A DNA stretch of 64,000 nt from a virus (Duplodnaviria > Caudoviricetes). The position numbers and the translations under genes are program-made. The notes below the pieces were generated by a model. That model saw only the letters and a program-made list of their open reading frames with translations. It did no database searches and was not told where the DNA came from. The stretch spans positions 1,414 to 65,413 of IMG/VR virus record IMGVR_UViG_3300044699_000088; one strand, given 5' to 3'. This document shows, in pieces, positions 56,676-62,003 of this stretch (position 1 is the first letter of the stretch; each line of letters begins with the position of its first letter).

Positions 56676-57823
56676 CTAGTTCACTTCGATTGCCTTCGCC
56701 GCGCGCTCGATGGCTTGTCCGTCGAGCCGCAGATAGTGCTTGCGCAGAATCTTCGCCCCCTCGGCCGGCCGGTCTGCCACTGGATGACTAAACACGTGAC
56801 CGGTCATCTGCGCGATTTCCGCTTCCGAGAGCCCCGCTTGCAAGAGCCGCGTGGCGATCGTCGCGCGACAGTCGCGCCACTGGAAGTCCTTGATGTGCGC
56901 CGCACGCTTGGCTGCGGCGAAATCGTCGAGGATCTGCCACAGGCTCATGTCAGCCAGAATGAGCCCTCCATGCGCAGCGCGCGGTTCGAGAATCGTCCGG
57001 ACCGTTGGCGACATAGCGATAATGCGCCCCTTCTTCGCCTTGGTGATCTCCCATGGCAAGCGGAGGACGCCTGCTTCAAAATCGCAATATTCCGCATCGA
57101 GCTTCAGGAGCTCACCCTGGCGCATACCCGTGTGCAGGGCAAGGATGAATGCTTCACGAGTGCGCGCCGCGTAAACCTTTAGCATGGCTGCCTGCTCCTT
57201 GGCTGAGAGCACGCGAGTTCGCGGGGTTTCCGCCTTGAGCTGCACGATCGAATTTCCTCGCCTGGCTCGAGTCGGGCTCTTCGCGATGAGGTTCATTTCT
57301 ACGGCACGCGAAAAGATGCATACGAGCACAGCCATCTCACGATTCACTGTCGCGATAGACCGCGGCCCCGACCCTTCGGTGATCTTAGAGCCGCCGTGTC
57401 GTTTCGGAGCGACTAATCGGGCATCGCGCAGCGCTAGGAGCTCGGGGAACGTGATGCTCGTCAGCAGGCGCGGACCAAGCGCCGGGATGAGCACATTATT
57501 AATGATGTTCCGCGTGAGCTGCGGGCGAGCGAGGCCGCGAAGTTTGACCCCGTTTTGATAGACCGGCTCGACGCAGCAATGGGTCGCGTAGTCGCGGGCC
57601 ATCTCCGCAAACGTGGTGATTGTTGGTCCGGTCGCGGCGCTTGCCTTTTCGCGGTTCGCTTCATCGACGAGGTCACGAAGAAGGTCGCTGGCCGCTGCCT
57701 TGGTGTCGCTCTCCTTCGGTTGGCGCCGCAGTTCGTGCTTCTTGCCGTTTGCGTCGGTGTACGAGACTCGAGCTACCCACTTGCCCGATATTTCTTGACG
57801 TAGCCGATTGGTTTGTTAGCCAT
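56676..57823 (-). CDS. int: Tyrosine integrase (frameshift ~57600-57640)
   Basis: ATVNRE, LALHTGMRQGEL, TKAKKGR, WRDCRATIAT, QMTGH, KHY; N-terminal arm-binding region from ATG 57823. Confidence 0.92.
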
Positions 57824-57827
57824 GTTT

Positions 57828-58069
57828 TTGTACCGCTATTGTACCGCTATGAGCTGCCATCCTCTACTTGTTGCGTCTCGTTTTGTCTCACATTTGCTAT
57901 GTTTTCTTGAAATTGCTCTCTCAGATACAGCAGACTCAAAATCTGCCGGGGTTAACCCCCATGTCGGTTCGAGTCCGACCTCGGGCACCAACAAAACAAA
58001 GGACTTAGCGGGATTTGTTGGGCAAAAAAAGACAAAAAGTTATTTACGGTTGTACCGCTTATTGTACCG
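57828..58069. repeat. Integrase arm-type sites (TTGTACCG x4) flanking attP core
   Basis: Copies at 57828, 57839, 58050, 58062 in two tandem pairs. Confidence 0.75.
57923..57990 (+). tRNA. 3' fragment of tRNA-Leu(CAA), the attP core (not a full tRNA)
   Basis: GCAGA-CTCAAAA-TCTGC anticodon arm, long variable arm, GTCGGTTCGAGTCCGAC T-arm, CTCGGGCACCA end; 5' acceptor strand absent. Confidence 0.9.
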
Positions 58070-58093
58070 GGTTGCGCCGAATCGTGAGGGTGG

Positions 58094-58504
58094 ATGAGGA
58101 GCAACAAGAAGAAAAGCGCGGCGGAGCTTCTTGCCGAAAATCGCGTCCTGCGCCAGGCGCGCGTCACCGATGGATTGGCAACGATTCTAATCACTGCGAT
58201 CAAATGGGGATGCGCCTTGGGCGTCGTTCGCTACATTAGCGTCATGGTAGTGGCGCTAGCCGGCGAGACGACAACGGCTAATATCGCAATGAAAATCCTT
58301 GGTAACTTCTCCATTTCTCAGGCACTTGCCTGGTCTCTTAGTGCAGGGTCGGCCGGTTATGGACTCGCACAGAATAAGCTGCGAAAGGACACCGTTGAGC
58401 GGTTACAGAGTCGGATTCGTGAGCTTGAGGAGAGTTGCGATCCGCGGCGCTCCTCCAGTCGCTTGACCCCACGTGGAGACACGAGACCAGAGGACAAAAC
58501 ATGA
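58094..58504 (+). CDS. Membrane protein (moron)
   Basis: Two hydrophobic segments; C-terminal DPRRSSSRLTPRGDTRPED. Confidence 0.65.
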   Translation: MRSNKKKSAAELLAENRVLRQARVTDGLATILITAIKWGCALGVVRYISVMVVALAGETTTANIAMKILGNFSISQALAWSLSAGSAGYGLAQNKLRKDTVERLQSRIRELEESCDPRRSSSRLTPRGDTRPEDKT

Positions 58505-59052
58505 GCGAAGCACAAGCGGTAACCGGGCTCGCAAGCGCCGTGTCGTTACTCGGTATTGTCATGCTCCTGATGTGGCTATACAGGGACTATCGTGTCGATG
58601 CCTTCCGGCAACAAATGTTCGCCATGAGGGACGAGCTATTCGATTTGGCAAACGCCGGATTGATTAGCTTCGATGATTCGGCATACGGCATGCTGCGAAG
58701 AACGATGAACGGGTATATCCGCTTCGGTCATCGGCTGTCATTGCTGCACGTGCTGATATTCGCGGTCATCACAAGGTCGTCATCTCGTGAAAGATCATTC
58801 GATTCGCGATGGGTGGCGACCCTAGCGACACTTCCTCCGGAAGCACGGGAGCGGCTCCAAGAGTTTCGCCATGGCATGGATCGGCTCGTCGTCAAGCACG
58901 CTATCTTGAACTCGCCCTTGCTCGTGGCGATGGTCGTGCCCGCGCTGTTAGGCGCATTTCTCGCCGAGATGTGCGCCAGGTGGCTGTCTCGTCAGCTACG
59001 CACCGAATTAGACAAGATCGACACTGCGGCCCTCGCGTATGGCGAAGCATAG
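58501..59052 (+). CDS. Membrane protein (moron)
   Basis: ATGA overlap; N-terminal TM, YRVDAFRQQMFAMRDELFD, further TMs. Confidence 0.7.
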   Translation: MSEAQAVTGLASAVSLLGIVMLLMWLYRDYRVDAFRQQMFAMRDELFDLANAGLISFDDSAYGMLRRTMNGYIRFGHRLSLLHVLIFAVITRSSSRERSFDSRWVATLATLPPEARERLQEFRHGMDRLVVKHAILNSPLLVAMVVPALLGAFLAEMCARWLSRQLRTELDKIDTAALAYGEA

Positions 59053-59126
59053 CGACAGGTTCCGGCCATCCACATCGGCGACCCCGCCTGAATTGCCCCA
59101 GAGAGAGTAGGGGGGGGGCACGCTGC

Positions 59127-59266
59127 CCCTCCGGGCGGGAACTAGGGTTTGGGGATGATGACATCGGAGCCGGTGGACTTCGGGTGAAGCGTCTTATTGC
59201 ATTCACAAATCCTCCTGAGGGAAAGAAGGAGGGGGCGAAGACGCGACCCCCTCCGGGCGGGAACTA
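59127..59266. repeat. Direct repeat CCCTCCGGGCGGGAACTA plus hairpin after each peptide gene
   Basis: Copies at 59127-59144 and 59249-59266; each feeds a G/C stem followed by a pyrimidine tract on the minus strand. Confidence 0.85.
59142..59206 (-). CDS. Putative signal-less peptide MNAIRRFT(P)KSTGSDVIIPKP (needs one added C at ~59182)
   Basis: AGGAGG RBS + GTG; C-terminal VIIPKP-TAG followed by the same repeat as the upstream peptide gene. Confidence 0.5.
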
Positions 59267-59431
59267 AGGACGGGGAATGACCACTCCCTCGAGAGCCTGC
59301 ACCACTCTCAGTATTGTTCGCACGATAAGTGATTCTGATGTGCGCGTCGGGCGGGTTCGTGTTGAGGCCGAGACTGATGGTGCTAATACTACTGTTAGCA
59401 AAAATAGGGACACTAAGATGACGCGTTTCAT
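59264..59431 (-). CDS. 55-aa secreted propeptide (not in ORF track)
   Basis: AGGAGG RBS; MKRVILVSLFLLTVVLAPSVSA signal peptide, then STRTRPTRTSESLIVRTILRVVQALEGVVIPRP. Confidence 0.85.
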   Translation of the reverse strand: MKRVILVSLFLLTVVLAPSVSASTRTRPTRTSESLIVRTILRVVQALEGVVIPRP

Positions 59432-59519
59432 GTTTTCTCCTCCTGTAACTCAGCGGATTGCTGAGAACTTGGGAAGAGCGCCCTTCTTGTAGTTAGGAGT
59501 GTTTGAATTGAGCATTTCC

Positions 59520-60841
59520 CTACCCGTGTTTTCGTAACGGGACAAACATCGCCGCTGGATACAGGGCAGAAATAGAAATGAAATCTTTGACGTGGCGAAC
59601 CATTTCGGAATCAAGCACTCCATCTCTAGCATCTCGTCGCAGATGAGCCAGCGCTATTGCGCACTCGTTTGATAGCTGAGCTGCCTGCGCGCGAGTAACA
59701 ACACATCTGGCTCGATCAATCGCTTCTTCATTCGAGACGCCGAAGTGATCCAGTAAAACTTCGATGATGTCAAGACAAACCTGGATCTCGTCTCGAGCCA
59801 TCAGCAGATCCTTAAATTCGTCCTCAACTTCTCGTAGTGTTTCGAGTCCTTCGTCCACACTGCCTTTCGCAACCTGCATCAAGCCGATGCTCCAAGTAAC
59901 TTTGATGATTTCCGTTGTCATGTTGCATCGCGTGAAGAGCAATTTCGCCCTAGCCCAAAACTCCAGCGCCTCGTCGTATGCTTGTTCCTTCATCAAACAT
60001 TGCCCGGCGTTGTAGTAGCACGCCGCTTCCATCTCTCGATCACCAGATTCCTTCATTTCGCTCGTCAATTCGACAAACTGCTGGCGCGCGGCAAGAATCG
60101 ACCGGCTCGATAGTCGATCAAAGCGAGAACCATGCGTGCATCGATGACGTGCTTGGTGTCTCCCCATGTGCGAAAAACTTCGATAGCGTCTTCTATTAAT
60201 TGGATGGCTTCAGCGGATCGGCCCATGACCTGGAGCACATTCGCACGGGCATAACCAAGAATGGCGTTTTGCAAGTCGGCATCTGGCCATGGCCCGATAG
60301 CACTCTCGGCGTTATACAGAGCGCCAAGGGCTTCCGCGTGTTCGCCGAGTCCGACATAGGCTGATGAGAGCTTGCGGTATGCGAGCGCTTCCAGTCGGTC
60401 GCGCTCCTCGGTATCCTTCAGTGCGCGTGTGATATCAATGGCCAATTCTGCCAACTCTCTAGCGCGCGATGGTTGAGAGTAGAAGGCTTGCTCGGCTCGG
60501 TTTAAGATCGCGCCACCGACGGCTGCTGTCTGAAATCGCTGGTCAAGAGAGACAATGTAGTGCCATCGCGCGGGGGCTGATCGCAGGAGCTCGTCGACCA
60601 ACTCGTCTACGCCCACCTGTTCTCGCTCCATTCGATCGGCGAGCACGCGAATTATTCGGATCGTCTCGTCTGGCGTTGTTGGTCCATTGGGCAATTGCCG
60701 TTTACGCTTTCGGTCACCGAGTTTAACCACACGTAGGGCACAGCTCGGGCAGGCTAGGAGATGATCCTCTGCGCGCTTCTCCTCCGTCTGGCTCAATTCT
60801 CGGAGAGCGTAGCGGGCGATCAAATCCCAATTGCATTTCAT
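59520..60841 (-). CDS. ~440-aa zf-HC2 + tetratricopeptide-repeat protein (one-base frameshift ~60095)
   Basis: N-terminal HLLACPSC; repeated TPR helices (ALAYRKLSSAYVGLGEHAEAL, YARANVLQVMGRSAEAIQL, CYYNAGQCLMKEQAYDEAL); ORFs 60065-60841 and 59520-60167 join at GRF/LAARQQF. Confidence 0.85.
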
Positions 60842-60862
60842 GGAGGAAGCGACCTTCCCGGC

Positions 60863-61753
60863 TTACTTGCGACTCGGGTTCTGGGGGTTATCGGTGAGGG
60901 CCAGCATCGGAGTCCGGTTGAATGCGATGAGGAGGGTGTCAATCGTGTTTTGGAGGGTATCGATGCTGTTTTGTGGAAACTGCGCCCTGCCGGCGAGTCC
61001 TTTGATAATTCTTTCAATGTCCGTAGGCTTGAATCCAACCTCGGTGCCTACGGCGCTTGTGTCCTTGCCGCTGCGCTCCGTCCACAACGGTGGTTTTCGC
61101 GTATCAGTACCGAGTCGATGAAGCATATTGACGAGCATCCGGGCGTTAACCGCGAGTGCCGCGATGATCTCTTCGCGCATCGCTCCGCTGACCCCGGAGA
61201 GAACCGCCAAAACATCCCTGAACTCGTCCGAGACAGGGTTTGCTCCGCTGTTTGGCAAGAGGTCGCCGATCGGTTCGTTTACGTGGTCGGCCAATCTTTG
61301 CAGCTCGTCCAGCGAGGGGTCTACTACATCACTTAGAACCAAATGCAGCATGTCGGGCTGTTCGTAGCCCATCACTTGTGCGGCTTCGGCCATAGACAAC
61401 CCGTGACGCCGCAGCGCCCTAGCTATGTTACCGCCGTGCCGACGCTTAGATAGATTCGAAGGTGGCCTGCTCATGGATGGGCTCGGCACCTCATGCGTTG
61501 TCGTTGACAGCAAGATCTCCAGAGGAACGTTTAGCGCTTGGGCAAGCGCAGAAGTGGTTTTAAGGTCGGGCGAGCTTACACCCCGCTCGATGTTGCTAAG
61601 CGTCTGATAGTGAATGCCGGCATTCCGGGAAAGCGTACGCTGCGACAAGCCGGCGGCTAGCCTCAGGCGGCGCACGTTATCGCCAACTGTGGAAGCATCC
61701 TGCACCTCGGCCTGGCCATCGACGCCATCTTGAACACGGTCTCCCATACTCAT
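60863..61753 (-). CDS. CI-like repressor with two XRE HTH domains
   Basis: VRRLRLAAGLSQRTLSRNAGIHYQTLSNIERGVSSPDL and NIARALRRHGLSMAEAAQVMG..PSLDELQRLA; divergent from cro/xis. Confidence 0.8.
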   Translation of the reverse strand: MSMGDRVQDGVDGQAEVQDASTVGDNVRRLRLAAGLSQRTLSRNAGIHYQTLSNIERGVSSPDLKTTSALAQALNVPLEILLSTTTHEVPSPSMSRPPSNLSKRRHGGNIARALRRHGLSMAEAAQVMGYEQPDMLHLVLSDVVDPSLDELQRLADHVNEPIGDLLPNSGANPVSDEFRDVLAVLSGVSGAMREEIIAALAVNARMLVNMLHRLGTDTRKPPLWTERSGKDTSAVGTEVGFKPTDIERIIKGLAGRAQFPQNSIDTLQNTIDTLLIAFNRTPMLALTDNPQNPSRK

Positions 61754-61974
61754 AACGCTAACATTTTTGTATCGCACTATGCTAGCTGCGCGTCCGCGGA
61801 AAGCCGGGCCAACCCGCCAAGTGAGCGGGACCAAACCGTGTTTCTTGCTTGGTTGTGTAGGCATAACGATCTTATTTTCAATGAAATAGGGACCTACAAG
61901 CCGCGGCGTGGCCGCCGTTAGAAGCTTAGAATATCACTTATCTCGGCTTGCGTACAAGCCTGCTAGAATCTTTA

Positions 61975-62003
61975 TTGACTTATGACCGAGTGGACTATAC
62001 ATT
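61975..62003 (+). promoter_or_regulatory. Rightward early promoter
   Basis: TTGACT-17bp-TACATT just before GTG at 62010. Confidence 0.6.

What the first reader, a model, noticed from the sequence alone, without database searches (positions are those of the whole stretch)
59264..60841. TPR receptor plus secreted propeptide inside the lysogeny switch: candidate arbitrium-like communication system in a non-Firmicute phage
Seen: between attP and the repressor, a ~440-aa TPR protein with an N-terminal HxxxCxxC zinc finger is followed 88 bp later by a 55-aa ORF missed by the ORF track. It has a strong RBS, a Sec-type signal peptide, a basic linker, an amphipathic helix and the end GVVIPRP. Known: RRNPP systems (Rap-Phr, PlcR-PapR, phage arbitrium AimR-AimP) are a TPR receptor with an adjacent short secreted propeptide, and are described mainly in Firmicutes. 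Inference: the C-terminal peptide is exported, matured, re-imported and sensed by the TPR protein to bias lysis versus lysogeny. The receptor has no HTH, so it would act through protein contacts (repressor or sigma factor). Lipoproteins and an RcsF-like gene point to a diderm host.
Basis: partly seen in the sequence, partly recalled or inferred. Interest (0 to 1): 0.92.

Follow-up and report, generated by a model that had tools for sequence, protein, structure and literature searches.

The report
Phage peptide-sensing anti-sigma-like cassette
A temperate phage of soil Acidobacteria carries, next to its repressor, a receptor-like protein and a small secreted peptide gene from a large, undescribed host family that looks like peptide signalling so far known mainly from Gram-positive bacteria.

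Summary
On the minus strand lie an XRE repressor-like gene (60863-61864), a zinc-finger/TPR gene (59520-60841, split by one frameshift) and, 88 bp on, a 55-aa signal-peptide ORF (59264-59431).

The phage's attP matches the 3' end of tRNA-Leu(CAA) of Thermoanaerobaculia genomes. Five such genomes each hold 8-16 strong paralogues of the receptor. There it follows an ECF sigma gene (10 of 10 tested). A homologous 53-69-aa propeptide gene follows it in 24 of 29 loci.

A reverse search with the peptide profile gave 20 hits in two genomes, and all 20 sit beside a receptor gene. A predicted complex puts the peptide's last eight residues in the TPR groove (score 0.80, best control 0.23; 58 of 80 solved complexes and 2 of 110 mismatched pairs reached the mark).

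Best reading: a secreted-peptide/cytoplasmic-receptor pair that works like Rap-Phr or arbitrium. It is wired to a sigma factor in the host and to the repressor operon in the phage.

Export, maturation, re-import and any effect on lysogeny are untested. My six paper searches found no description. The scan had not noted this module on other DNA.

The parts
60863..61864 (-). XRE-type repressor-like protein, 333 aa, with two HTH domains. First gene of the minus-strand operon; ends 21 bp before the receptor gene.
   Evidence: Pfam HTH_3 6e-19 (residues 64-118) and HTH_37 (142-192). PHROG transcriptional regulator/repressor families. No sigma-70 region 2 anywhere in the phage record.
59520..60841 (-). 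ZAS (zf-HC2) plus TPR receptor-like gene, split by one frameshift into 60065-60841 (258 aa) and 59520-60167 (215 aa).
   Evidence: Family of 435-447-aa proteins, best match 37% identity. AlphaFold model of relative P0002 has pLDDT 94.6: three or four N-terminal helices plus a TPR superhelix.
60740..60763 (-). Codons for the zinc motif H27-x3-C31-x2-C34 of the anti-sigma domain. C3 stands in the column where host copies have His.
   Evidence: H27, C31 and C34 are invariant in 27 of 27 aligned N-termini. Pfam PF13490 is above its cut-off. The best Foldseek rows of the window's own N-terminal model are anti-sigma domains RslA, ChrR, RsiW, DdvA-Nt and RskA, but with E 0.3-3.
60092..60093 (.). Frameshift site in a short run of A (T on the coding strand).
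   Evidence: A 151-nt contig of public run X1 (depth about 2) covers 60037-60186 with no other difference and one extra A behind 60092. By my reading, that puts the two pieces in one frame.
59264..59431 (-). Propeptide gene, 55 aa plus stop. Putative Sec signal peptide is residues 1-22 (59366-59431) and the exported part residues 23-55 (59267-59365).
   Evidence: Matches the peptide-family HMM at E 4.8e-10, though it was one of the 22 seeds. Alignment with 21 homologues. dN/dS below 1 in 10 of 10 orthologue pairs of the host copies.
59267..59290 (-). Codons of the last eight residues (EGVVIPRP), the proposed mature signal.
   Evidence: By analogy with L002, where only residues 52-59 (the last eight) of the peptide touch the receptor groove in the predicted complex. 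The tail class follows the receptor tree with one change.
59437..59444 (-). Shine-Dalgarno-like AGGAGGAG, 5 nt before the ATG of the peptide gene.
   Evidence: Read from the sequence.
59228..59254 (-). G+C-rich hairpin (8-bp stem) just after the peptide gene.
   Evidence: Read by eye. The terminator scan did not call it because there is no T-run (0 found).
59142..59177 (-). Remnant of a second, decayed peptide copy ending STGSDVIIPKP plus stop. It has no signal peptide in frame.
   Evidence: Frame 1. A 33-nt direct repeat at 59126-59158 and 59248-59280 is 85% identical with 122-bp spacing. Host loci have two or three tandem copies (L025, L030).
57922..57990 (+). attP core: the 3' 69 nt of a tRNA-Leu(CAA) gene.
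   Evidence: 93-94% identical to tRNA-Leu(CAA) of G001, G002 and G004. ARAGORN finds no whole tRNA in the window.
56676..57602 (-). Tyrosine integrase.
   Evidence: Pfam Phage_integrase 1.9e-13. PHROG integrase 1.2e-30.

Best explanation
The three minus-strand genes form one signalling cassette.

The 55-aa product is exported through Sec and cut. A short C-terminal peptide of about eight residues, ending in hydrophobic-Pro-x-Pro, is the signal. It reaches the cytoplasm again and binds in the concave groove of the TPR superhelix of the ZAS-TPR protein.

In the host (Thermoanaerobaculia, Acidobacteriota) this protein is the soluble anti-sigma factor of the ECF sigma factor encoded just upstream, so peptide binding would set that sigma factor's activity. 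Each genome keeps 8-16 such private channels.

The phage has taken one channel and replaced the sigma gene with its XRE repressor gene. The receptor would then act by protein contact, on the repressor or on a host sigma factor. This would tie induction or lysogeny to the density of cells that make the peptide, much as Rap-Phr does on Bacillus phages, plasmids and ICEs.

Shown here:
- gene order, family membership and conservation
- purifying selection on the peptide ORF
- exclusive two-way linkage of the peptide and receptor genes
- host assignment

Modelled only: the peptide tail in the groove.

Inferred:
- export, cutting and re-import
- which way the peptide acts on the receptor
- the receptor's target in the phage
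- any effect on lysogeny
For: 1. Conserved synteny. L002, a metagenome contig whose receptor is 33% identical, has HTH, receptor and a 55-59-aa signal-peptide ORF ending GFPKP. Of 30 paralogous loci in five Thermoanaerobaculia genomes, 29 have downstream DNA. 24 of those hold an HMM-detectable peptide gene, and 2 more hold a divergent one with internal repeats.
2. Reverse test. With the peptide profile, 12 of 12 hits in G001 and 8 of 8 in G003 lie within about 130 bp of the 3' end of a receptor gene.
3. The peptide ORF is under purifying selection: dN/dS is 0.09-0.55 in 10 of 10 pairs.
4. Predicted complex of P0011 with residues 27-59 of its own peptide. The ipSAE scores were 0.81, 0.80 and 0.76; the best of 3 controls was 0.23. 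This mark was reached by 58 of 80 solved complexes and 2 of 110 mismatched pairs. The runs agree in at least 56% of contacts and partner pLDDT is 46-50. The contacts are peptide residues 52-59 with receptor groove residues 114-310.
5. The tail class (P[KHR]P against PPG) needs one change on the receptor tree, and 0 of 500 shuffles were as low (quick tree).
6. Precursors with two internal copies of the tail motif (L026, L031, L060) and tandem gene copies (L025, L030) fit a signal released by proteolysis.
7. The receptor fold is a peptide-binding TPR superhelix. Rap of phage phi105 with its peptide scores Z 22.3, NprR-NprX 20.4 and PlcR-PapR 18.8.
8. The ZAS domain sits after an ECF sigma gene in 10 of 10 host loci tested, 9 of them above the Pfam cut-off.
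9. Variants of the same family pair the TPR body with a separate XRE gene (L087, L002, the window) or a fused XRE domain (P0158 and others).
10. The hosts encode 3-6 Opp/Dpp-type peptide-binding proteins each. One module is followed directly by such a lipoprotein.
11. An allele with the frame intact occurs in a public run.
Against: - Nothing here is experimental.
- The receptor gene is frameshifted in this record. The one contig that mends it has depth about 2.
- The second peptide copy in the window is decayed, so the phage cassette may be eroding.
- In the second locus set only 7 of 12 close full-length loci had a peptide gene (5 by HMM, 2 by design). None of 17 distant subfamily loci did.
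- L023, L037 and L039 have none.
- The predicted groove contacts are no more conserved than the background: entropy 2.75 against 2.63, and 7652 of 10000 random sets scored as low.
- The fold search does not separate RRNPP receptors from unrelated eukaryotic TPR proteins (APPBP2 Z 24.5, LGN 23.6).
- From recalled general knowledge, Acidobacteria are diderm, so an octapeptide would have to cross an outer membrane twice, and no route is shown.
- The strongly conserved amphipathic helix in the exported part has no role in this model.
- The phage record holds no sigma factor gene, so the target of the ZAS domain there is unknown.
- Only 2 loci of the phage-type clade could be inspected.
Confidence: 0.55

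Rival explanations
1. Cell-autonomous, secretion-coupled switch. The TPR domain binds the C-terminal tail of the propeptide before export, inside the producing cell. The rate of Sec export sets how much receptor is occupied, and so how much sigma factor or repressor is free. This is the logic of FlgM and sigma-28, or of TPR chaperones of type III secretion (both recalled). No re-import and no cell-to-cell signalling would be needed.
For: The receptor has no signal peptide in the model and looks cytoplasmic. The peptide is made in the same cell from the same operon. The predicted tail-in-groove contact fits this reading equally well. It also removes the problem of crossing an outer membrane twice.
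Against: Eight to sixteen paralogous pairs per genome with diversified tails are hard to explain for a general secretion sensor. Precursors with internal repeats of the tail motif, and motifs followed by extra residues (L026, L031, L060, L048, L049), point to proteolytic release after export. One module is followed by an OppA-like binding protein.
Confidence: 0.15
2. The small secreted protein is an output of the regulator, not its ligand. It could be a 33-aa amphipathic envelope-active or bacteriocin-like peptide, expressed under the ECF sigma factor or the repressor operon. The TPR domain would sense something else.
For: The most conserved part of the exported region is an amphipathic, basic helix, which the signalling model does not need. 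ECF operons often carry their target genes (recalled). Groove contact positions are not specially conserved.
Against: The linkage is exclusive in both directions: 20 of 20 peptide hits lie beside receptor genes. Tail class and receptor clade diverge together. The predicted complex uses only the tail, at 0.80 against 0.23 for the best control. No immunity or transporter gene was seen in the flanks I read, though the flanks were only 1.5 kb.
Confidence: 0.15
3. In this phage the cassette is a decaying passenger. It is a piece of host DNA picked up near the attachment site, with a broken receptor gene and a decayed second peptide copy, and has no role in the phage's decisions.
For: Frameshift in the record. 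Decayed second copy. No other IMG/VR contig with the family was found in four scans. G+C is slightly lower at 58-62 kb, 0.54-0.56 against about 0.59.
Against: The window's receptor belongs to a distinct, well-supported clade (100 SH-aLRT) with seven other metagenomic proteins. The one other locus of that clade that I could see also has an XRE gene upstream and an excisionase-like gene nearby. This suggests a lineage adapted to mobile elements, not a recent capture. A contig from a public run has the frame intact. The cassette is co-oriented with the repressor gene and starts 21 bp after it.
Confidence: 0.12
4. The 55-aa ORF is a chance open frame and not a gene.
For: It is short, and the first-stage ORF track missed it.
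Against: Homologues occur at the same place in 24 of 29 host loci and in L002. The HMM scores split in two groups, E <= 5e-10 against E >= 0.34. dN/dS is below 1 in 10 of 10 pairs. The ORF has a strong ribosome-binding site.
Confidence: 0.02

Closest known systems
Rap-Phr cassettes of Bacillus chromosomes, plasmids, ICEs and phages (RRNPP family). Examples: Rap of pLS20, an anti-repressor switched off by its peptide (PMC7430634, title and abstract seen in the listing); Rap of phages phi3T and phi105 (PDB 8rtc, 8rte).
   Same: Both have a cytoplasmic TPR superhelix without an HTH that acts by protein contact. Both have an adjacent gene for a roughly 40-60-aa Sec-type propeptide whose C-terminal part is the signal. 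Both occur as many paralogues per genome with copies on mobile elements, and both include tandem or repeated propeptides. Fold match: Z 22.3 over 315 residues at rmsd 4.7 to phi105 Rap with its peptide.
   Different: There is no specific sequence kinship: RapJ scores 1.7e-16 while eukaryotic LGN scores 1.2e-43 in the same profile search. The N-terminal effector module is a zinc anti-sigma domain, not Rap's helical bundle. The partner is an ECF sigma factor or an XRE protein. The host is a Gram-negative-type phylum. The peptide tails end in PPG or PxP.
Arbitrium (AimR-AimP) of SPbeta-like Bacillus phages
   Same: Both are phage-borne pairs of a TPR-type receptor and a short signal-peptide propeptide, encoded in the lysis-lysogeny region. 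In both the proposed signal is a C-terminal short peptide.
   Different: AimR binds DNA through an HTH, and this protein has none. AimR is only rank 40 in the fold search (Z 15.5, rmsd 8.1). Here the cassette lies in the repressor operon, so I infer it would be expressed in lysogens.
Class I zinc-binding anti-sigma factors (ZAS): RsrA, ChrR, RslA, RsiW; and DdvA of Myxococcus, a ZAS with a TPR-CHAT part. The DdvA lead came from earlier scan notes.
   Same: The [H/C]...H-x3-C-x2-C motif is present and Pfam zf-HC2 is above its cut-off. The best fold rows for the window's N-terminal domain are RslA, ChrR, RsiW, DdvA-Nt and RskA. Host copies overlap the stop of an ECF sigma gene.
   Different: This protein is soluble and carries a roughly 350-residue cytoplasmic TPR sensor. 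It has no transmembrane segment in the model, no CHAT protease and no redox or periplasmic sensor. A secreted-peptide gene comes as a third component. The passages I read of the ECF classification paper (PMC7826278) and of the review PMC8999054 mention soluble anti-sigma factors in 10 groups and TPR extensions on sigma factors (ECF42), but no such trio.
PlcR-PapR, NprR-NprX and Rgg-SHP (HTH-TPR receptors of the RRNPP family)
   Same: The same TPR body occurs fused to an XRE HTH in relatives of about 495 aa (P0158, P0159, P0164 and others; precomputed Pfam). That is the PlcR/NprR architecture. NprR-NprX scores Z 20.4 and PlcR-PapR Z 18.8.
   Different: I did not check whether those fused relatives have a peptide gene beside them. 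They come from Acidobacteriota-type metagenomes, not Firmicutes.

Membership tests
RRNPP-type peptide signalling (Rap/Rgg/NprR/PlcR/PrgX/AimR) | Cytoplasmic receptor whose sensor is a TPR-type superhelix | tested here: met
   Pfam TPR_12 31.8 bits against a cut-off of 30.1. The AlphaFold model of relative P0002 has pLDDT 94.6 and is all-helical, with TPR pairs at residues 89-424.
RRNPP-type peptide signalling (Rap/Rgg/NprR/PlcR/PrgX/AimR) | Adjacent small gene for a secreted propeptide | tested here: met
   Present in the window, in L002 and in 24 of 29 host loci. 20 of 20 reverse hits lie beside receptor genes. The wider set gave 7 of 12 close and 0 of 17 distant loci. The signal peptide was judged by rule of thumb only, since SignalP was not available.
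RRNPP-type peptide signalling (Rap/Rgg/NprR/PlcR/PrgX/AimR) | Mature peptide binds in the TPR groove | tested here: inconclusive
   The model supports binding but does not show it. Score 0.80, best of 3 controls 0.23; 58 of 80 solved complexes and 2 of 110 mismatched pairs reached the mark. Runs agree in at least 56% of contacts and partner pLDDT is 46-50. Contacts are peptide residues 52-59 with receptor residues 114-310. The pair tested was L002's, not the window's, because the window's receptor gene is split.
RRNPP-type peptide signalling (Rap/Rgg/NprR/PlcR/PrgX/AimR) | Common descent with the family (specific sequence or fold similarity) | tested here: inconclusive
   Rap, NprR and PlcR are among the top fold rows (Z 18.8-22.3) but are not separated from unrelated eukaryotic TPR proteins (Z 22.3-24.5). 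The profile search ranks LGN and designed TPRs far above RapJ.
RRNPP-type peptide signalling (Rap/Rgg/NprR/PlcR/PrgX/AimR) | N-terminal HTH (or Rap-type helical bundle) as output module | tested here: not met
   The N-terminus is a zf-HC2 anti-sigma domain. No HTH was found in the protein.
RRNPP-type peptide signalling (Rap/Rgg/NprR/PlcR/PrgX/AimR) | Export, extracellular maturation and re-import through an oligopeptide permease | not testable with these tools
   Only the capacity can be shown: 3-6 SBP_bac_5 genes in each of 5 host genomes.
Arbitrium AimR-AimP | Receptor is a DNA-binding HTH-TPR protein related to AimR | tested here: not met
   No HTH. AimR 5zvv is at rank 40 with Z 15.5 and rmsd 8.1.
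Arbitrium AimR-AimP | Peptide level biases lysis against lysogeny | not testable with these tools
   Only position is shown: the cassette lies in the repressor operon between attP and the divergent early region.
Class I anti-sigma factor, ZAS type (Pfam zf-HC2) | H-x3-C-x2-C zinc motif with an upstream His or Cys | tested here: met
   H27, C31 and C34 are invariant in 27 of 27. The upstream column is at least 90% His, and the window has Cys3 there. PF13490 scores 24.4 bits against 22.2, and 28.5 bits.
Class I anti-sigma factor, ZAS type (Pfam zf-HC2) | Anti-sigma-domain fold | tested here: inconclusive
   The window's N-terminal model has pLDDT 81.5. The listed Foldseek rows down to rank 14, and rank 17, are anti-sigma domains solved with ECF sigma factors or alone (RslA, ChrR, RsiW, DdvA-Nt, RskA). 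Their E-values are 0.3-3 and probabilities range from 0.96 down to 0.21.
Class I anti-sigma factor, ZAS type (Pfam zf-HC2) | Encoded next to, and binding, an ECF sigma factor | tested here: not met
   For the window this is not met: no Sigma70_r2 in the 65-kb record at E <= 1, and the upstream gene is XRE. For host paralogues the adjacency is met in 10 of 10 tested. Binding was not tested.

The most novel reading that the evidence does not exclude
Thermoanaerobaculia run a set of 8-16 private peptide channels per genome. In each, a Sec-exported, processed oligopeptide is sensed in the cytoplasm by a soluble zinc anti-sigma factor with a TPR sensor, and so switches its own ECF sigma factor. If so, this is a peptide quorum-sensing logic of the Rap-Phr kind that arose, or survived, in a diderm phylum, and it is a new way to control ECF sigma factors. 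Their temperate phages have rewired one channel to the repressor operon, so that prophages count peptide-producing kin before induction. To my knowledge and in my searches, this would be the first phage peptide-communication system described outside the Bacillota.
Probability: 0.4. Interest if true: 0.93.

Novelty: new variant of a known kind. Interest (0 to 1): 0.86.

Why it matters
Peptide signalling through secreted propeptides and cytoplasmic TPR receptors is treated as a Firmicutes trait. The detection tools for it are aimed at Gram-positive bacteria (PMC10075063 and 10.1101/2021.08.18.456871, abstracts seen; passages of the former).

A sequence-unrelated family with the same logic in Acidobacteria, in many copies per genome, would widen the known range of this kind of signalling.

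It would also supply a missing input signal for a class of soluble anti-sigma factors. And it would give an arbitrium-like decision system in phages of one of the most abundant but least tractable soil phyla.

The pairs are small and modular: a sigma factor, an anti-sigma receptor and a peptide. That makes them directly testable in vitro and possibly useful as orthogonal switches.

Tried and rejected
Searches that led nowhere:
- The near-identity protein search found only the window's own protein.
- Four scans of viral contigs found no other phage with the family.
- blastn against 50,697 phage records gave no match.
- A genome-contig scan with A3 gave no relative.
- The metagenome scan gave one locus only.
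- Rfam found nothing at 57500-59600, and ARAGORN found no whole tRNA.
- The terminator scan called nothing, and the two promoter-like sites are at chance level.
- PHROGs has no family for either half of the receptor.
- NCBIfam gave only a weak 'anti-sigma factor' hit, 21 bits against a cut-off of 100.
- No RNA holder was listed for the stretch. X1 covers only 13 of 30 bins.

Ideas tested and dropped:
- The window's XRE protein as a degenerate sigma factor: no similarity to the host sigma genes.
- Kinship between the window's XRE protein and the one in L002 beyond the HTH domain: none beyond 84 residues at 33% identity.
- Groove contacts as a conserved site: they are not more conserved than the background.
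- A crude hydropathy screen for membrane segments is not clean. 20 of 107 family proteins have a 19-residue window above 1.6 (maximum 2.16), which I take as Ala/Leu-rich TPR helices.

Limits:
- The 'careful' tree did not finish, so the quick tree is reported.
- Six literature searches and passages of four papers gave no precedent. Supplements were not seen, and the ECF group tables there could name this sigma group.
- The contexts of P0002, P0003, P0004, P0007, P0009 and P0013 could not be seen.
Full report
WHAT IS THERE

The window is bases 1414-65413 of a 65,413-bp IMG/VR virus record. It is a tailed temperate phage. PHROGs finds a large terminase, portal, head protease, major head protein, tail proteins, tape measure and J-like fibre, and an integrase and repressor.

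On the minus strand at the right end lie three genes:
- an XRE-type protein of 333 aa with two HTH domains (60863-61864)
- 21 bp later, a gene in two overlapping pieces: 60065-60841 (258 aa) and 59520-60167 (215 aa)
- 88 bp later, a 55-aa ORF (59264-59431) behind an AGGAGGAG ribosome-binding site

The split gene carries Pfam zf-HC2 (24.4 bits, cut-off 22.2) and TPR_12 (31.8 bits, cut-off 30.1). An exhaustive HMMER search gave 341 relatives at E <= 0.001. Most of the best 150 are 400-470 aa (107 of them), and the best match is 37% identical. So the window's gene is one gene broken by a frameshift.

A 151-nt contig of one public run is identical over 60037-60186 except for one extra A behind 60092. 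By my reading of the frames, that joins the two pieces. The depth is about 2, so either version could be the error, but an intact allele is plausible.

THE SMALL ORF IS A REAL, CONSERVED GENE

The one related metagenome locus I could fetch is L002, whose receptor is 33% identical. It has the same order: HTH_3 gene, receptor, then a small ORF with a signal-peptide-like start, an amphipathic helix and the end GFPKP.

Through P0028 I reached six loci in Thermoanaerobaculia genome records. All six had a 56-60-aa ORF of the same design about 100 bp after the receptor gene.

Searching five of these genomes with the family profile gave 12-24 matches each at E <= 1e-8. At E <= 1e-60 the counts, made from the table, are 16, 15, 10, 9 and 8.

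Thirty loci were fetched, and 29 of them have downstream DNA. A profile built from 22 peptide ORFs hit 24 of those 29 loci. All 29 hits at E <= 5e-10 lie directly after a receptor gene, 28 of them on the same strand. The next hit in 196,915 bp has E = 0.34. Twenty of the 24 positive host loci were themselves seeds. The non-seed hits are L013, L024, L033, L034 and the extra tandem copies in L025 and L030. Two further loci (L026, L031) have a 72-77-aa signal-peptide ORF with two internal copies of the tail motif. L023, L037 and L039 have none.

The reverse search is the stronger test. With the peptide profile, 12 of 12 hits in G001 (6.6 Mb) and 8 of 8 in G003 lie within about 130 bp of the 3' end of a receptor gene listed. 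Fourteen are co-directional and six convergent.

The peptide ORF is under purifying selection: dN/dS is 0.09-0.55 in 10 of 10 orthologue pairs.

Limits of the association:
- In a second set from ten other genomes of the phylum, 7 of 12 close full-length loci had a peptide gene (5 by HMM, 2 by design).
- None of 17 distant loci in that set did.
- The family itself was found in only 12 of 301 sampled genomes of the phylum at E <= 1e-40.

WHAT THE RECEPTOR IS

The N-terminal zinc finger is the ZAS anti-sigma domain:
- H27, C31 and C34 are invariant in 27 of 27 aligned N-termini.
- A fourth ligand column is His in host copies and Cys3 in the window.
- A model of the window's own first 95 residues has pLDDT 81.5.
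- Its best Foldseek rows are RslA, ChrR, RsiW, the N-terminal domain of DdvA and RskA. The E-values are only 0.3-3, so this is suggestive rather than significant.

In the host, the gene whose stop overlaps the receptor's start is an ECF sigma factor. Sigma70_r2 was found in 10 of 10 tested, 9 above the Pfam cut-off.

The body, modelled on relative P0002 at pLDDT 94.6, is a TPR superhelix. It resembles peptide-binding TPR proteins in general:

| Structure | Z |
|---|---|
| APPBP2 | 24.5 |
| LGN | 23.6 |
| Pins | 22.8 |
| Rap of phage phi105 with peptide | 22.3 |
| NprR-NprX | 20.4 |
| RapH | 19.7 |
| MalT domain III | 19.5 |
| PlcR-PapR | 18.8 |
| AimR | 15.5 |

The profile search of solved structures gives the same picture. 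The fold fits an RRNPP-like receptor but does not show kinship.

The same TPR body also occurs in other arrangements:
- with a shortened ZAS domain and a convergent peptide gene (L086)
- without a ZAS domain, behind a separate HTH_3 gene, with a convergent peptide gene ending WSWPRP (L087)
- fused to an XRE HTH in proteins of about 495 aa

RECEPTOR AND PEPTIDE AS A PAIR

The window's own pair could not be tested because its receptor gene is split. I therefore used L002's pair: P0011 with residues 27-59 of its peptide, each with an alignment. The result was:
- ipSAE 0.81, 0.80 and 0.76, against 0.23 for the best of 3 controls
- a mark reached by 58 of 80 solved complexes and 2 of 110 mismatched pairs
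- agreement between runs in at least 56% of contacts
- partner pLDDT 46-50

Only the last eight residues of the peptide touch the receptor, in the groove formed by residues 114-310. The helix is not placed. This supports binding but does not show it.

On a quick maximum-likelihood tree of 37 receptors, the peptide tail class (P[KHR]P against PPG) needs one change, and 0 of 500 shuffles were as low. The window, L002 and six metagenomic proteins form a clade with 100 SH-aLRT support. Related rows share labels, so this shows clustering rather than proven co-evolution.

The predicted contact positions are no more conserved than their surroundings. That fits specificity sites or no constraint, so it is neutral.

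HOST AND PLACE IN THE PHAGE

Window 57922-57990 is 93-94% identical to the 3' 69 nt of tRNA-Leu(CAA) in three of the five Thermoanaerobaculia genomes. It lies next to the integrase gene. This is an attP of the usual kind, and it names the host group.

The phage record has no sigma-70 region 2 at E <= 1.

The cassette is co-oriented with the repressor-like gene and follows it directly. I therefore infer that it is expressed with the repressor, in lysogens. That is closer to Rap-Phr on phages, plasmids and ICEs than to arbitrium.

The hosts have 3-6 Opp/Dpp-type binding proteins each. In one module such a lipoprotein gene follows the receptor gene directly. This is a single case.

READING

The most likely reading (0.55) is a secreted propeptide and cytoplasmic TPR receptor pair whose output module is an anti-sigma domain. 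The phage has rewired it to its repressor operon.

Rivals:
- a cell-autonomous, export-coupled switch (0.15)
- the peptide as an output, not a ligand (0.15)
- a chance ORF (0.02, refuted)

COMPARISON AND NOVELTY

It works like Rap-Phr, but I do not file it in the RRNPP family. The output-module feature is not met, and kinship is inconclusive.

It is a ZAS-type anti-sigma protein by motif and Pfam. In the window itself, though, the sigma-partner feature is not met.

My six paper searches found no description of a soluble ZAS-TPR anti-sigma factor with a propeptide gene, nor of RRNPP-like systems in Acidobacteria. Supplements were closed.

Earlier notes of this scan on other DNA concern a different module, with a membrane ZAS anti-sigma factor and an exported TPR-CHAT protease.

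Noticed in passing
window 59142-59177 (-), with direct repeat 59126-59158 / 59248-59280: A decayed second copy of the peptide gene's end (STGSDVIIPKP plus stop) lies 122 bp after the first. It has its own AGGAGG/GTG in another frame and no signal peptide. Host loci have 2-3 intact tandem copies (L025, L030).
   Followed up: partly
window 57922-57990 (+); L040-L042 1501-1587: The attP core is the 3' 69 nt of tRNA-Leu(CAA), 93-94% identical to the gene in three Thermoanaerobaculia genomes. This assigns the phage's host group.
   Followed up: yes
window 60092: A 151-nt contig of one public soil-metagenome run has one extra A here and no other difference, which would close the frameshift in the receptor gene. 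Depth is about 2.
   Followed up: partly
L026 and L031 (ORF about 100 bp after the receptor gene); L060 (+86 bp): These propeptides carry two internal copies of the tail motif (such as EISVPPG and EIHFPPG, or GKLIIPWP and GKLILPHP). They resemble multi-pheromone precursors of Bacillus.
   Followed up: no
L047 613-5774 (G003:C30): One host module reads: TPR protein whose N-terminal stretch looked HTH-like to my eye (Pfam found TPR only), ECF sigma, ZAS-TPR, then directly an SBP_bac_5 (OppA-like) lipoprotein gene in place of a propeptide gene.
   Followed up: partly
L011 629-1507, also L016, L017, L018, L020, L023, L024, L028: The ECF sigma genes of one receptor clade have an extra N-terminal stretch of about 130 residues that looks like an XRE-type HTH to my eye. 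Pfam named only Sigma70_r2/r4 there.
   Followed up: no
L087 794-2854 (G001); L086 573-5153: Host variants of the module. L087 has a separate HTH_3 gene, a ZAS-less TPR receptor and a convergent peptide gene ending WSWPRP. L086 has two tandem modules of sigma, short-ZAS receptor and convergent peptide gene.
   Followed up: partly
window 58094-59052 (+): Two overlapping plus-strand ORFs between attP and the peptide gene match PHROG families of unknown function (phrog_27816 at 8e-15, phrog_13156 at 4e-25).
   Followed up: no
window 58001-62000: G+C is 0.54-0.56 here against about 0.57-0.62 in the rest of the phage.
   Followed up: no
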